Position numbers: made by a program. Positions 58,001 to 64,000 of a stretch of DNA of 64,000 nucleotides are shown in pieces. The stretch lies in assembly GCA_965153285.1 (NCBI GenBank), contig OZ229111.1; one strand, written 5' to 3'. Origin of the DNA: Podarcis tiliguerta (Eukaryota). Position 1 is the stretch's first letter; each line of letters begins with the position of its first letter.

Positions 58001-61000
58001 TGTGCAAAACTCTGGGCTTTGGACCTGGAATAAAATTAGCACCTAATATCAATATATTCTGTCCATATTTCCTACACTGGACAGAATATATGCATATTAC
58101 ATCCCAATGAAGAACTACTGGACCCTGGTAAGTAGGGAACAGAGATGTACATGTAATCCTTTAGTCACTGGGCCATTAAATCTATGTTGAAATGATACTG
58201 TCTCCTGCTGGATAGCCCTTCATGAACTATGAAACAAGGTGGCCCCAAAGCCAATACACACATAAACTTCAATGGGCAACAAGAGATTCAGCCCAATAAA
58301 TCCCCACTGCCGTTCTGAGCTGCTGGCCTGTTTGGCAATATATCACCAGTGAAAGGACCATTAGAAAACACTCACTGGTCAGCAAGACACAGATGTGAAC
58401 TCCTCTGTTTGACCTGCTTGGCACTGAGTGATGAAAGCTATGCACTGATTGATAACTCACAAAAGGCAGGAATCCTGCTGCAATACAAAGACCTTGCCAC
58501 ATGGGAGCACAGCGATAGCATCTCAAACACCTTGCAAGCAGTTTACTTTAACTAGATCAAAGTAAACACCATTAGTTGCAGAACCAAGAGCTTTAACTCA
58601 CTGATCAGAGCGCTCATACTATTCTTCCATGCAAGAAAAGTCACTGTGACAATTATCTGTGCTTGAAGAGAAACCAAACTTAAATACCTCCACTTTCAGA
58701 AGAGTCTCAGATTCTGGAAATGCCTGAATTACAAAGGTGAAGACAAGTAAGAATAAACCTGGAATTCCTGAAAAATTAGAGGGGAACTAATTTTCTTTTT
58801 TTAAAAGAAATATCCAGACTTATACAAGCACTGGGGTATCTATATATAAAAATGGATTGGACCACATTTGATATGCCGCTGAACATACAGAAAGCTGAAA
58901 TTTCATGCTCACATATTCCAAAACTTACTTACTTATCAAACCTTTATTAGGCATTATACAAATAAAACCATAAAAGAGAAAATAAGATATAAAAGCCTTG
59001 AAATATATATAAAAAGGCAGCAGTTGGCTACATACATATATATATATATGCATATAGAGTCAGTGGTTTTCCTTGTTAACCTGCTCCTTGGAGAACTGCT
59101 ACCAAAAACTCGGCTACCCCCGCCGTTACCCTTTGGTCAACGTCGGATAGGCAGAATCCCACACATTCACCTTGCTGGGGTTCCAGACCACCCAAAAGAG
59201 GGGACAGCACGCGTTGACGGAGCGTACGGTACAATGGGCAATGAAAGAGAATATGCTCTACGGTGTCCGGGACATTCATAGAACATCTGCAGAATCTCTT
59301 GTTTCTGGGAATGTTTTGATATCTTCCCCTGACAAATGCTGAGGGAAAAACATTCAAACGGGCCAGCATAAAAGCCCTACGTTGGGCTGGGATTATTAAT
59401 TTAGTGACGTAATTGGCTCTGCCAGCTAAGATATTTAAACCATAGAATATGGGAGAGCAAATTTTGTTTACAGCTGCCATAATATTTTGCCTCTCGACAT
59501 CCTTTAGTCTAGTTAGGATATTATGGAAAATGTATTGCTCATTAGAATTGTACAGGGGCTCCAGCTCGATGCCTAAAGATTCAATCTTTTTTTCGAGGTA
59601 CTGATACCATCTTGATTTGTAGGAGTCTTTGAGCAAATCTGCGAGCAGACTTGATGGAGGGCAGCGAAAATGGCAGCGTAACCAGTACTTTATTGAGGTG
59701 GACCAGGCCCAGTATTCCATTGTGTGTATGCCTATTTCTGCACACATTGTTTCATATTTAATCGCAGCTGGGAGTCCAAGAATACGTCTCAAAAAGCTGG
59801 AGTGAATCTTTTTTAAATCACTATTATATGCTTGGACCCATAGCGGGATTCCATAGAATATCTGGGATTGCACTTTTGCTTGGAATATCTGATTGGCCGC
59901 AGGAATAAATTGATTGCCTTTCTGATAATAAAAACGGGCAACTGCTGATGAGGTGCACTTTGCCTGTTTTATGGCATTTGTGCGATGATTTGCCCACCCT
60001 AAATTGCTCTGGAATAAGATTCCCAGATACCTATAGATTTTCACTTGTTGGATTTCTTGCCCTCTTATTTTCCATTTCTCTAATTTCCAACCATTCGAGA
60101 AGACCAAAATTTTTGTCTTCTCGTAATTTATAGAGAGTTTGTTACATTCGCAGTAAAGGATCAGAGAAGATATAAGACGTTTCAGACCCAAGCTCGTTAA
60201 TGATAGTAGAACAGCATCGTCTGCGTATAATAACAGAGGAACTGGTTTCTGATTAAGTTTAGGGGCATGTGATTCTATTTTTTGAAGGTGATCTGGCAAG
60301 TCTGATAAAAATAAATTAAATAGAAAGGGGGCAAGAATACACCCTTGTTTTACCCCTTTCGAGTTTGGGATGTCTGATGAAAGGTGACCTTTGGTGTTAA
60401 GTTTGACTTGACAGATATTGGAAGAGTATAAATTTTGTATTAGAATCAATAAGCGCTGGTCAATTTTTAATTCTGCGAGTTTCCTCCACAGCTTTGGGCG
60501 GTCAATTGAGTCGAATGCACCACGAAAATCTACAAAAGCAGCATATATCTTAGATTGCCTTTGAGATCTGTATTTTTCAACCAAATGCATAAGTATAAGG
60601 CAGTGGTCTAATGTAGAGCAACCTTTGGAGAAACCTATTTGTTCTTTCCCTGGTAAATTTAGATTTTTCATCCAGGTGAGGAGTTTAGATAAAAGGTGCT
60701 TAGCGTAGATTTTCCCTATCACTGATAATAGGCTTATCGGTCTATAATTCCCTGGTTCTTTTGGGTCGCCATTTTTAAAGATTGGGATAATTATTGATCT
60801 TAACCATATCTCAGGTATGATCCCATATTTATCTATGAGAGTAAACAAGTGAGCTAAGGGTTCTGCCCACCAATCTATATAGGTCTTAAATAATTCTATT
60901 GGTAGACCGTCTGGCCCAGGAGATTTCCCCGATTTGAAATTTTTAACTATCTCTCTAATTTCCTCTTCTTCTACCCTTGGCCACTCCTGGAGTTTATTGA

Positions 61001-64000
61001 TTTTATTTTTAGTGGTTTCATTTCCTTTAAGTTCACTGTGTAGATTGTTAAATACAGATGTAAAATATTGGGACCATTTGGATTCTGCAATTGGTGGTAG
61101 AGTTAGTTGATTTTCGGCTTTCAATCCTCCGTACACTAGGTTCCAGAGCGCTTTGTTGTTTTTACTCTGAATTGAGTCGAGTAATTGTAGCCATTTTTGG
61201 GTTGCATATTTCTGTTTCTTTTCGGCCAGAATGTAATGATATTTTCTTTTTTCATCAAGATAAGAGGGCTCTAGTTTAGTGCGATTATTTTTAAATGTTT
61301 GGCGCAGTTTTCTTTTTAGCTGGAAACATTCATCATCAAACCAAGGGCTAGCGCTATATTTAAGTACCCAAGCTTTAGGTGGAGTACCGAGTTCTACGAA
61401 CATTTGGAAGATTTCATTATAAATTTTCGGAATATCGCTGTAGGAATTAGCGGTCTTTAAGTTGGATAATACTTGCTTTCTCAGGTTGGCTGTGAGTTTT
61501 TGCCCCACTGCTGCGCTCATTTCCTGGGACCATTTTAATTGGGTCATTTGTTTGTATTGAGAGGGTTCTATGATATTGTGCTTGGTTATTCCAAAACACC
61601 CTGACTGCTAGTAAAGTCAGAAAGGAAGTTCATACATCTCCCCCTCAAAACTTGGGGATATGAAGTCTGTCTCAGCCGTGGGCAGCATGCCAGCCCAGCT
61701 CCTAAAGCAATGACTGACACTGGAATCAACCTCTTTCTGGAGGAGGGACTTATTTTTTTTTAGTGAAAGCAGGAAAGCAAATCTGAAAATGGGGCAAGCT
61801 GTATGCACCTTTGGGTAAACTTTCTCTTTCACGTGCTTTAACAATCCTCAGACTGATAGGGGACTATCCAGTGGCAGCAAGGGATGTCCCAGCTTTAGAA
61901 GGCAGGCTACAGATACTAGTATATATCTAAAGGGATTAAGTGCTTAATATTCAGGTAACCAGATGCTAGATCACACCCCTATCGAGTGTGTTTATTCTTA
62001 CTTATAATATCTGTTTTCCTCTCCTATTTGCTCAAAATGGAAACACAGACAGTTTAAAGTGTTTAAAAGCTTTAGGATTCATTCTGTGACACCAATCACG
62101 ACATGACTATTGAAGGTCTCTGCTTTATTTGGGAAGCCATCTAACTATCTGTGCTCCTGGAGGCCCCCTCTGGCACTATGCAGTCCAATTTTGCTCCCTG
62201 GTATATTGAGGAGCTGCTGCTGCTGAAACAGATGGGCAAGGCCTGAACAGTATGTGGCATAAATCTCACTACTTCATCTTCAGGAGTGTCACTAGTAGTT
62301 TCCCAAGTTGGTGAGGCTCATTTGATAACAACAAGAAAGAGAGAACATTGTGGGGTACTCTATCAACAGAGATTCAGCAGGCACCTTCTGTTTCAACTTT
62401 TAAATGCCTGCTGAAAACTTTTCTATTCTGCGAAGCCTATGCAGGCGATGAAGAACACATATTCCCACAACAGTTAATTGAAGTCTGATTTTAACTTCCA
62501 TATGGTTTTAATTGTACGGTTTTATGTGTTATTGTTGTTAACTACTTTGTTTTTTAAAAAAATGAAATAGTGATATATAAATATTATTATAAATAAACAA
62601 ACTACATATGATGATACTATAAGATTCTCATTTAAGTCTACACATTAGCCACAGGACTCTAGTTAACTTTATTTTTTATAGTTCAGCACTTGGTGCTCAG
62701 CAATATGTTTTCCCTTTTAAAAGTGAACCATCACATCTGAAAGGAAACAGGAAATAAGTTTAGGACTTCAAGTGACATTTTGAGCCTTCAAAGAAAAGGG
62801 GGGGAAATCACACATACCTAATTTAATCCTTCATTTTCTTTTTTTTAAGGAAAGGTCTGACATCTGGACTGACAATCTGCATTCCAAAGTTTCGGCCCAT
62901 CACAAATTGAAACAGCTGAGTTATAAATCTTTAGGAAGAGGGTGATTGGTCATGGAAAACAGCAAACGTGCACTTAAAAACAAGTGTAGTTTGGAAAGAA
63001 GATAAAACTCACAGTACAGCTAGCTTTCCCTGGGACAACTTCTCCAAAGGACTTGCACAGATAAATCTTGCTCTTGAAAATAAATCCTGCACCTGACATC
63101 AGTAACGCTACATCTGATCTCACGGTAGCTTGTTTCTTTCTTGTTTTTAATTCACAACAGGTTTATAATAAGAAAAAATGAAGCTCGGGACCTCTACATC
63201 TGGTTGCTGAATGAATGCCACATATATTCCTCCTCATTCCCACTCTCATATAATATATACATTGCTGATTTCTCAAGAGCCCTTTCACATATTATTTTTA
63301 CAGCAAGGAAAAACTGATATTTGGCATGCAGTCTTGATAAAGCTGAGTACTCATCTCCCACAAGCAACCCAGGGCTCCAGACTGCTTGTGCCACAAGCCC
63401 AGCACCCCTTGGTTTCACTGGCAAATTGGGTTAGATGGGGTGGGCTTGTCCTCCAACATTACCATTACAGAAACTAAAATCTAAATTGTAAGTAAATGTG
63501 ATTTAATGAGAGGTTCTAAGTCTTGGCATATATAAAGCAAATATCCTCTTCATTAGAGAATAATAGATGCGAGTTGTAGAATCTAATTTTTAAGGTAGGA
63601 TTATCTAGTTTAACACTTGGATCATAATAACCTAGTATTGGAAACTCCTCATTAAAAGCAATGTTGGTACCTCTTATTCAACCACTTTGGAACCACATGC
63701 TATGACTTTTGTCTTTATTTGCATAAAGTGGGACCACCCTCCCTCGTCTCATTCTGCAGACACACCATTTCCAAACTCTTGCCCATTTTATGTACAGATA
63801 ACGAGTGCAACATAAAACATCCCTTATGTGCTACAAACCAATCACAAATGCCATTTAATATAATTACAGCTTAAGTGAAAAGTATAATGATCCTTACAAC
63901 TTCTGCCTATCAGCAGAGGAAATGGTCCTAAACTAGGGAAACTTGCATTCACAGGCCACAATATACTGTTTAGAATGCAATCCTTTGAAGATCAATAGGG

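What the first reader, a model, noticed from the sequence alone, without database searches (positions are those of the whole stretch)
58914..61597. Very young LINE with mutation-free RT ORF, (TAAG)n tail and exact TSD
Seen: 836 uninterrupted codons running right up to the truncation point, intact YADD, C-terminal CCHC, short-tandem-repeat tail rather than poly(A), and an 11-bp TSD whose last 2 nt overlap the tail repeat (microhomology at priming). Known: tandem-repeat tails and 5' truncation typify target-primed reverse transcription by non-L1 LINEs. Inference: an active or recently active family; the PWFDxEC and EHILFHCPLY motifs suggest the RTEX group rather than CR1, L2, BovB or L1, a clade little studied in amniotes.
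Basis: partly seen in the sequence, partly recalled or inferred. Interest (0 to 1): 0.65.

Follow-up and report, generated by a model that had tools for sequence, protein, structure and literature searches.

The report
Young truncated lizard-type LINE insertion
This is a recently inserted, front-truncated copy of a jumping gene (a LINE retrotransposon) of a lineage found in lizards and snakes; it is an ordinary kind of element, and this copy cannot move by itself.

Summary
On the minus strand, 836 uninterrupted codons (59079-61586) encode the linker, reverse transcriptase (YADD) and C-terminal CCHC region of an APE-type LINE. A 143-nt 3' UTR and a (TAAG)3 tail follow. An exact 11-bp target-site duplication, TATTCCAAAAC, brackets the element and occurs nowhere else in the window.

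The closest public relative, P0002, is 1099 aa and 94% identical over all 836 residues without a gap. It carries an N-terminal APE endonuclease. The window copy therefore starts at codon 264 and is dead on arrival: no endonuclease, no start codon, no promoter.

Three things point to youth:
- the open frame, which implies under about 0.7-1.4% neutral divergence;
- the perfect duplication;
- a CpG ratio of 0.59 against 0.21 for the window.

"Mutation-free" is not shown. There are 50 of 836 amino-acid differences from P0002, and one substitution at a residue that is invariant in the other 18 aligned relatives.

Named relatives (32-48% identity) are all squamates. L1 and endonuclease-less clades are excluded. 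Indirect leads favour the RTE-X/Proto2 side over Vingi.

Verdict: a new member of a known kind, of modest interest.

The parts
58914..58924 (.). Target-site duplication, copy next to the element's 3' end (TATTCCAAAAC on the + strand). The + strand C at 58924 is shared with the last G of the tail.
   Evidence: Exact 11-mer found only here and at 61587-61597. 11 of 20000 random placements shared any 11-mer.
58924..58935 (-). 3' tail, (TAAG)3 read on the minus strand.
   Evidence: Single exact match in the window; sequence read.
58936..59075 (-). AT-rich 3' UTR: 140 nt here, 143 nt counted from the stop codon's end to the tail's first T at 58935 inclusive of GA. It holds a (TA)n hairpin and an AATAAA at 58943-58948, 7 nt upstream of the tail.
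   Evidence: Sequence. The fold is not better than shuffles (z -1.30; 23 of 200 shuffles fold at least as well).
59076..59078 (-). TAA stop codon of the LINE reading frame.
59079..61586 (-). 836 uninterrupted codons. They equal residues 264-1099 of the full-length family protein: linker, RT, thumb-like region and CCHC.
   Evidence: 94% identity to P0002 residues 264-1099 with no gaps.
61326..61346 (-). PWFDDEC linker motif (P0001 residues 81-87; W82 nearly invariant and C87 invariant in the family).
60018..60764 (-). Reverse-transcriptase domain (Pfam RVT_1; P0001 residues 275-523).
   Evidence: E 1.1e-33. It aligns with the RT of solved L1 ORF2p and R2 proteins.
60216..60227 (-). YADD catalytic motif (TAC GCA GAC GAT; residues 454-457).
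   Evidence: Read. Invariant in all 19 aligned family members. Aligned with the FADD of L1 ORF2p.
59238..59297 (-). C-terminal Cys/His motif CRCSMNVPDTVEHILFHC (C764, C766, H778, C783).
   Evidence: C766, H778 and C783 are invariant in 19 of 19. A motif of this form was also found in about 110 of the 130 proteins scanned.
61587..61597 (.). Target-site duplication, copy next to the truncated 5' end. Its last three sense-strand bases, ATA (61587-61589), read as Ile and align with I263 of P0002, so up to 3-4 nt of junction microhomology is possible.
   Evidence: The tblastn alignment of P0002 starts at residue 263 / window 61589.

Best explanation
A full-length source element of a squamate LINE family, encoding one 1099-aa APE-endonuclease/reverse-transcriptase protein, was transcribed. 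Its RNA was then copied into this site by target-primed reverse transcription.

Inferred steps, read from the anatomy:
1. The endonuclease nicked the window's + strand at 5'-TATTCCAAAAC^ACCC-3'.
2. The freed 3'-OH (...AC) paired with GU inside the RNA's (UAAG)n tail and primed cDNA synthesis.
3. Synthesis, or retention of the cDNA, stopped at codon 264, just past the endonuclease domain.
4. The second strand was cut 11 bp away, which produced the 11-bp duplication.
5. The 5' end may have been joined through 3-4 nt of microhomology.

The result is a dead-on-arrival copy. It has no endonuclease, no start codon of its own, no 5' UTR or promoter, and possibly no ORF1.

The insertion is recent: the frame, the duplication and the CpG content have not had time to decay.

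Shown here: the anatomy, the truncation point, the homology and the signs of youth. Inferred: the order of the steps, the priming microhomology and the current activity of the family.
For: - Anatomy.
- Domains: RVT_1 in the window copy. Exo_endo_phos_2 (E 3.8e-11), Exo_endo_phos (E 1e-05) and RVT_1 in the 94%-identical P0002.
- Truncation: the window aligns to P0002 residues 264-1099. Ten N-terminal 330-aa parts of family members gave no hit better than E 0.13 outside the element; only their linker ends, residues past about 240, matched, and they matched inside it.
- Conservation: all 83 columns that are invariant across the 19 aligned relatives are by construction kept in the window copy, including the motif-A Asp (D353), YADD and the Cys/His residues. 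The RT core aligns with solved L1 ORF2p (E 5.4e-29) and R2 proteins.
- Youth from the frame: 4.6-5.7% of single substitutions in the frame would create a stop. With assumed indel:substitution ratios of 0.05-0.15, the chance of an intact frame falls to 5% at 0.7-1.4% divergence.
- Youth from CpG: the CpG observed/expected ratio is 0.59 in the element, 0.15 and 0.17 in the flanks, and at most 0.33 in 111 same-sized windows elsewhere.
- Duplication: 11 of 11 bases identical.
- Tree: the window copy and P0002 pair at SH-aLRT 100. In the RT core the window's terminal branch is 0.006 against 0.026 for P0002.
Against: - No second copy of the family is in the window, and no eukaryotic genome collection was available. 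Copy number, a same-subfamily consensus, the true tail repeat of the family and the empty allele are all unchecked.
- The copy differs from P0002 at 50 of 836 residues. Of the differences that relatives can polarise, 10 look derived in the window lineage and 10 in P0002 (my count from the table). At 13 conserved columns the window matches the majority at 2 and P0002 at 5.
- Leu replaces an otherwise invariant Phe at residue 147. At least part of this could be decay after insertion.
- The tail is only three units long.
- The 3' UTR fold is not distinguishable from shuffles.
- One insertion cannot define the endonuclease's target preference.
Confidence: 0.9

Rival explanations
1. Clade reading 1, the first reader's: the family belongs to the RTEX (RTE-X) clade of the RTE group.
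For: - No RNase H domain in P0002 or three other full-length relatives, nor in the precomputed Pfam columns of the hits listed.
- Relatives of 24-33% identity with the same size and architecture include a pearl-oyster protein (P0110) and a protein filed under a bivalve-symbiont MAG (P0390). RTE-X is the commonest Repbase LINE type of the oyster (27 of 59) and is bivalve-rich (PMC10294476, passages).
- RT-only relatives occur in a fern and in protist or JGI data. RTEX is one of the three LINE clades tabulated for green algae, always with short-repeat tails (PMC3747384, table 3 passage).
- Contigs carrying full-length relatives are 4.3-5.9 kb, against a mean RTE-X consensus of 4.9 kb in bivalves (PMC10294476).
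- Anolis, which holds two members of this protein family (P0014, P0020), has RTEX insertions (496 counted; PMC7561263, table passage).
- From recall only: a GV(K/R)QGC motif is typical of the RTE and L1 groups rather than the I and Jockey groups.
Against: - No RTEX-labelled sequence was compared.
- The squamate clade is only a sister (SH-aLRT 93 and 87, not starred) to the invertebrate, fern and protist set in an RT tree rooted on L1-like proteins.
- Proto2 is easily confused with RTE-X (PMC10294476).
- The endonuclease scores better against Pfam Exo_endo_phos_2 than against Exo_endo_phos. As far as I recall, the C-terminal Cys/His motif is absent from canonical RTE/BovB.
Confidence: 0.4
2. 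Clade reading 2: the family belongs to Vingi, the RNase-H-less sister of Ingi known from hedgehogs and reptiles, including Vingi-1_Acar.
For: - APE+RT in one frame without RNase H, matching the description of Vingi in PMC13708176 (passages).
- Vingi is reported in reptiles and is present in Anolis (860 insertions; PMC7561263, and PMC5753468 passages). Anolis proteins P0014 and P0020 sit inside the family clade.
- Arthropod relatives exist (Diaphorina, Stomoxys, Cordylochernes).
- From recall only: the C-terminal CxC...ET.xH...C motif resembles I-group elements.
Against: - No hedgehog protein appears among the 120 listed hits of each, although Monodelphis and rabbit L1 fragments at 28% identity made the list.
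- Vingi is called compact, and Vingi-2_Gav is 3128 bp (PMC5786205). That is shorter than the 3.3-kb reading frame of this family alone, and relatives lie on 4.3-5.9-kb contigs.
- The bivalve survey does not mention Vingi at all (0 occurrences), yet bivalve relatives exist.
- Fern and protist RT relatives are unexpected for an I-group clade.
- The defining paper (PMC3002237) was not held.
Confidence: 0.2
3. The reading frame is open because the host has co-opted it: a domesticated RT-derived gene rather than a recent insertion.
For: An 836-codon frame with every family-invariant residue kept.
Against: - A perfect 11-bp duplication and a retained repeat tail.
- CpG content almost three times that of the surrounding DNA.
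- The frame runs open into the flank for only 7 codons, with no evident start or splice context.
- 94% identity to a complete mobile-element protein.
Confidence: 0.02
4. The insertion is old and the frame stayed open by chance or by gene conversion from active copies.
For: 50 of 836 amino-acid differences from the nearest known relative, and one change at an invariant site.
Against: - At a divergence of a few percent, the chance of no stop and no frameshift in 2508 nt is below 5%, and it reaches that level already at 0.7-1.4%.
- The duplication is intact and CpG is not depleted.
- Differences from P0002 fall on less conserved columns than average (0.43 against 0.52). That fits divergence between active lineages under selection.
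Confidence: 0.04

Closest known systems
RTE-X / RTEX clade LINEs (Repbase; mammalian L4/L5 fossils, abundant in bivalves, present in Anolis)
   Same: An APE+RT protein of about 1100 aa without RNase H, a short-tandem-repeat 3' tail, and element-sized contigs of 4-6 kb. Relatives occur in bivalves and outside animals (PMC10294476, PMC3747384, PMC5753468 passages).
   Different: Membership is untested because no labelled RTEX sequence could be compared. The squamate proteins form their own starred clade (SH-aLRT 97), only 24-33% identical to the nearest non-squamate proteins.
Vingi clade (Vingi-1_Acar of Anolis, Vingi-1_EE of hedgehog)
   Same: A reptile host range, and APE+RT in one frame without RNase H (PMC13708176 and PMC5753468 passages).
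   Different: Vingi is described as compact (3128 bp for Vingi-2_Gav; PMC5786205). This family's frame alone is 3.3 kb, and relatives sit on 4.3-5.9-kb contigs. No hedgehog hits were listed. Membership is untested.
RTE/BovB LINEs of squamates and ruminants
   Same: APE+RT in one frame, frequent 5' truncation, microsatellite-like tails, and tail-to-target microhomology at priming (PMC6007223 and PMC13295347, abstracts).
   Different: Here a Cys/His motif lies about 53 residues from the C-terminus. The published RTE insertion signature, a duplication starting with T about 10 nt downstream of a T-stretch, is not seen at this single site: the duplication starts with G and the T-run lies inside it. 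With one insertion this decides nothing.
Human L1 ORF2p (solved structures 8sxt, 8uw3, 9hdo and others)
   Same: The RT fingers/palm align over about 318 residues (E 5.4e-29), including the catalytic xADD. Both use an APE endonuclease upstream of the RT in full-length members, and target-primed reverse transcription.
   Different: No poly(A) tail and no Pfam match outside the RT. L1-like proteins from opossum and rabbit form the distant outgroup (branch lengths 1.11 + 1.11), and they score 142-161 bits on the family's RT profile against 484-575 bits for family members.

Membership tests
APE-type non-LTR retrotransposon (LINE) | Reverse-transcriptase domain with a catalytic xADD | tested here: met
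   RVT_1 E 1.1e-33. YADD is invariant in 19 of 19 relatives and aligns to the FADD of L1 ORF2p.
APE-type non-LTR retrotransposon (LINE) | N-terminal apurinic/apyrimidinic-like endonuclease in full-length members | tested here: met
   P0002 (94% identical) has Exo_endo_phos_2 at E 3.8e-11 and Exo_endo_phos at E 1e-05. Three other relatives also have the domain. It is absent from the window copy, which is truncated at codon 264.
APE-type non-LTR retrotransposon (LINE) | Insertion hallmarks of target-primed reverse transcription: duplication, 3' tail, 5' truncation | tested here: met
   An exact 11-bp duplication, a (TAAG)3 tail abutting it, and truncation with no upstream homology in the flank.
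RTEX (RTE-X) clade | The RT domain groups with Repbase RTEX references in a phylogeny (RTclass1 criterion) | not testable with these tools
There are only indirect leads (PMC10294476).
Vingi clade | The RT groups as sister to Ingi, together with Vingi-1_EE and Vingi-1_Acar | not testable with these tools
   No labelled sequences were available, and PMC3002237 is not held.
Vingi clade | No RNase H domain | tested here: met
   Pfam finds only the APE and RT domains in P0002, P0003, P0012 and P0122. This feature is shared by many clades, so it does not discriminate.
Vingi clade | Compact single-ORF element of about 3.1-3.5 kb | tested here: inconclusive
   The frame alone is 3.3 kb, and contigs with full-length relatives are 4.3-5.9 kb. 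Their DNA could not be read, so whether an ORF1 exists is unknown.
L1 clade | Poly(A) tail, and an RT grouping with L1 | tested here: not met
   The tail is (TAAG)3. L1-like proteins are the distant outgroup, and similarity to ORF2p is confined to the RT core.
R2/R4-type (restriction-like endonuclease) LINEs | C-terminal restriction-like endonuclease, no APE, site-specific insertion | tested here: not met
   Full-length relatives have an N-terminal APE. R2 proteins match only in the RT, at E 1e-18 to 3e-22.
CR1/L2 ('stringent') LINEs | A conserved 3' stem-loop next to the repeat tail, and an RT grouping with CR1/L2 | tested here: inconclusive
   A stem-loop is predicted just upstream of the tail, but the 3' UTR folds no better than shuffles (z -1.30). 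No second copy was available for covariation, and the RT grouping is untestable. From recall only, the YADDAVLL context differs from the ADDT of CR1/L2.

The most novel reading that the evidence does not exclude
The family is a still-active squamate LINE lineage that has not been catalogued by name. It would be RTE-X/Proto2-like but carry a C-terminal Cys/His motif. Its complete 1099-aa APE+RT frame, already present in public read-derived data (P0002), would be retrotransposition-competent. Its vertebrate range, so far confined to squamates among named hits, with the next relatives in arthropods, bivalves, a fern and protists, would reflect horizontal arrival rather than vertical descent.
Probability: 0.15. 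Interest if true: 0.5.

Novelty: new member of a known kind. Interest (0 to 1): 0.3.

Why it matters
As a single locus it matters little: it is one dead-on-arrival LINE copy in apparently non-coding DNA, about 37 kb from the only exon I recognised.

As a pointer it has some value. It shows that this genome recently hosted an active non-L1, APE-type LINE whose full-length frame is intact in public data.

Such elements are the raw material of current RNA-delivered gene-insertion platforms (Vingi-1 of Anolis, RTE-1 of opossum, L2-2 of zebrafish; PMC13708176, passages). They are also markers for squamate population genetics and tests of horizontal transfer among reptiles.

The insertion may be polymorphic, so it could serve as a presence/absence marker.

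Tried and rejected
Clade assignment:
- No route to labelled references worked.
- A PDB search with the endonuclease part of P0002 gave nothing useful (best E 0.0097, to an L1-type endonuclease).
- A paper search for a (TAAG)n-tailed lizard LINE found 0 papers.
- The unrestricted 'Vingi' search was mostly author names.

Homology searches:
- A profile search with the 19-sequence alignment added no named vertebrate beyond lizards.
- The search among shorter proteins found no fragment above 56% identity, so nothing could be said about near-identical copies.

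Other checks:
- tblastn alignments of P0021 and P0125 seemed to run past the 5' boundary to 61688 and 61805. On inspection they cross stop codons and show no similarity there, so I rejected them as extension artefacts.
- The 3' UTR fold was not significant.
- Rfam, tRNA and tandem-repeat scans of the window added nothing to the finding.

Host identity: the only recognisable exon (an NTR module) looks, from recall, like the netrin-1 C-terminus, which is almost identical in human. I did not send it to a homology search.

I do not take the window for human. It holds a young non-L1 LINE whose named relatives are all squamates.

Full report
**1. What is there**

The minus strand of window 59076-61607 is open for 843 codons from stop to stop. 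The next longest frame in the 64-kb window is 187 aa. Stop triplets make up 5.07% of the window's triplets, so such a frame has a chance probability near 9e-20. In 300 shuffles of the element, the longest frame was 165 codons.

Seven of the codons are read-through into the flank; 836 (59079-61586; P0001) belong to the element. Pfam finds one domain, RVT_1 (E 1.1e-33).

On the minus strand the order of parts is:
- a TAA stop at 59076-59078;
- an AT-rich 3' UTR with an AATAAA at 58943-58948;
- TAAGTAAGTAAG at 58924-58935.

TATTCCAAAAC occurs exactly twice in the window, at 58914-58924 and 61587-61597, abutting the tail and the first codon of the element. Only 11 of 20000 random placements of the same span shared any 11-mer between their junction windows. 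The bases next to both copies differ, so the duplication is exactly 11 bp. The last G of the tail is also the first sense-strand base of the duplication, and the following T continues the repeat.

**2. What it is**

The best public relative, P0002, is 1099 aa and comes from read-derived assemblies. It matches all 836 residues at 94% identity without a gap, at its own residues 264-1099. P0002 has Exo_endo_phos_2 (E 3.8e-11) and Exo_endo_phos (E 1e-05) in residues 2-251, then RVT_1, and no RNase H. Three more full-length relatives show the same layout.

The window copy is therefore 5'-truncated just behind the endonuclease. Ten N-terminal 330-aa parts of family members find nothing in the flanks better than E 0.13. 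Two tblastn alignments that seemed to run past the boundary cross stop codons without similarity.

The alignment to P0002 starts at I263, encoded by the last three bases (ATA) of the upstream duplication. Three to four bases of microhomology at the 5' junction are therefore possible. This is inferred from protein alone.

In an alignment of 19 family members, 83 columns are invariant, which by construction includes the window copy. Among them are the motif-A Asp (D353), Y454-A-D-D457, C766, H778 and C783. The RT core aligns with solved L1 ORF2p (E 5.4e-29) and R2 proteins.

**3. Age**

Three independent signs point to a recent insertion.
- The frame. 4.6-5.7% of single substitutions would make a stop. 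With assumed indel:substitution ratios of 0.05-0.15, an intact 2508-nt frame becomes unlikely (P = 0.05) at 0.7-1.4% neutral divergence, and P = 0.5 is reached at 0.16-0.31%.
- The duplication is 11 of 11 identical.
- CpG. The observed/expected ratio is 0.59 in the element, 0.15 and 0.17 in the flanks, and 0.21 on average (maximum 0.33) in 111 equal-sized windows elsewhere.

'Mutation-free' is nevertheless not shown.
- The copy differs from P0002 at 50 of 836 residues.
- Of the differences that other relatives can polarise, 10 look derived on the window's side and 10 on P0002's (my count from the table).
- At 13 conserved columns the window matches the family majority at 2 and P0002 at 5.
- Residue 147 is Leu where all 18 other sequences have Phe.
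- The differences sit on less conserved columns than average (0.43 against 0.52). That many neutral changes would almost surely have broken the frame.

Most of the differences must therefore separate two active lineages, or two host species, rather than reflect decay of this copy. In the RT core the window's terminal branch is 0.006, against 0.026 for P0002. No other copy lies in the window, and no host genome could be searched, so a same-subfamily consensus is missing.

**4. Relatives and distribution**

Among named hits, family members at 32-48% identity come only from squamates:
- Podarcis muralis, P. lilfordi and Anolis carolinensis;
- Sceloporus undulatus and Naja naja.

The exhaustive representative search shows about 25-30 clusters above 34% identity. 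The score then drops to proteins of about 30% identity and the same 1000-1200-aa size.

In a quick maximum-likelihood tree of the RT core (63 rows; LG+G4; SH-aLRT only; rooted on three L1-like opossum and rabbit proteins):
- the 28 squamate-type rows form a starred clade (97) holding all 6 named lizard rows;
- the window and P0002 pair at 100;
- their sisters are P0004, P0005 and P0006 (95).

The next tier includes named proteins from a psyllid, a fly, a pseudoscorpion and a pearl oyster. It also includes a record filed under a bivalve-symbiont MAG, a fern, and unnamed JGI and EukProt records.

No bird, turtle, crocodilian, mammal (other than L1), amphibian or fish name appeared among the 120 rows listed in each. 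Only about a quarter of database proteins carry names, so this is a lead toward a patchy range, not a demonstration.

I infer a squamate host from these relatives. The species was not determined. I do not take the window for human.

**5. Clade**

The Repbase criterion is an RT phylogeny against labelled references, and none could be obtained.

What can be said from calls:
- L1 is excluded.
- Endonuclease-less R2/R4 types are excluded.
- RNase-H-bearing clades are unlikely.

From papers (passages only unless stated):
- Anolis carries both rare Vingi (860) and RTEX (496) insertions (PMC7561263).
- Vingi is 'compact' (PMC13708176), and Vingi-2_Gav is 3128 bp (PMC5786205).
- Bivalve RTE-X consensus sequences average 4937 bp, Proto2 5675 bp and BovB 3583 bp. 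RTE-X is the commonest oyster LINE type in Repbase, and that survey never mentions Vingi (PMC10294476).
- Green algae are tabulated with L1, RandI and RTEX, the RTEX always with short-repeat tails (PMC3747384).

Contigs carrying full-length relatives are 4.3-5.9 kb. Together with the bivalve, fern and protist relatives, these leads favour the RTE-X/Proto2 side over Vingi.

My recollection that GV(K/R)QGC is an RTE/L1-group trait points the same way. My recollection that a CxC...ET.H...C tail is I-group-like, and the better score of the endonuclease on Exo_endo_phos_2, point the other way.

I put RTEX at about 0.4, Vingi at about 0.2, and another or unnamed clade (Proto2-like included) at the rest.

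**6. Mechanism**

The anatomy fits target-primed reverse transcription by a protein supplied from a full-length source element:
1. a first nick on the + strand at TATTCCAAAAC^ACCC;
2. priming with 1-2 nt of pairing between the ...AC-3' end and GU of the (UAAG)n RNA tail;
3. cDNA synthesis that ended, or was resected, at codon 264;
4. a second nick 11 bp away.

Priming aided by tail-to-target microhomology has been proposed for RTE-related elements (PMC6007223 and PMC13295347; abstracts and outlines only). Their specific signature, a duplication starting with T about 10 nt downstream of a T-run, is not seen here, but one site decides nothing.

The 3' UTR folds into a (TA)n hairpin and a stem-loop next to the tail, no better than shuffles (z -1.30; 23 of 200 shuffles fold at least as well).

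The copy cannot move on its own.

**7. Context and limits**

The only other recognisable coding feature is an NTR-module exon at 20965-21333 on the + strand (E 1.5e-27). It ends in a stop codon and lies about 37 kb away.

I recall its C-terminus as netrin-1-like and nearly identical to the human protein. I therefore ran no homology search with it.

Not checked, because no suitable collection or tool was open:
- copy number in the host;
- full-length DNA, including ORF1, the 5' UTR and the true tail;
- the empty allele and orthologous loci;
- members of P0002's cluster;
- supplementary tables of the cited papers.

**8. Verdict**

The element is a young, dead-on-arrival copy of an APE-type LINE from a squamate-wide lineage.

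The 'recently active family' reading is reasonable. The 'mutation-free' and 'RTEX' statements are unproven. It is a new member of a known kind and of modest interest.

Noticed in passing
window 20965-21336 (+): An exon-like open frame encodes an NTR/C345C module (Pfam E 1.5e-27) and ends in a stop codon. From recall, the terminal residues resemble the netrin-1 C-terminus. If so, the LINE lies about 37 kb downstream of that gene's end.
   Followed up: partly
window 10018-10064: A perfect (TTA)n microsatellite, 15.7 units with 100% matches.
   Followed up: no
window 1-64000: No Rfam family at gathering score and no tRNA gene in the whole window. The CpG observed/expected ratio is 0.21 at 41.9% GC, typical of a methylated vertebrate genome.
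   Followed up: yes
proteins P0003, P0006, P0007, P0012, P0017, P0021: Six different lineages of the same LINE family each sit on contigs of 5.6-5.9 kb. That suggests a full-length element of about 5.8 kb, with some 2 kb upstream of the APE+RT frame: room for an ORF1. Their DNA could not be read.
   Followed up: no
window 61146-61148 (P0001 residue 147): The window copy has Leu where all 18 other aligned family members, including the 94%-identical P0002, have Phe. This is the clearest candidate for a change private to this copy or its sublineage.
   Followed up: partly
P0390: A 768-aa APE+RT protein of this LINE supergroup is filed in NCBI under a bacterial MAG (Candidatus Thiodiazotropha). 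It is most likely host (bivalve) DNA binned with the symbiont.
   Followed up: no
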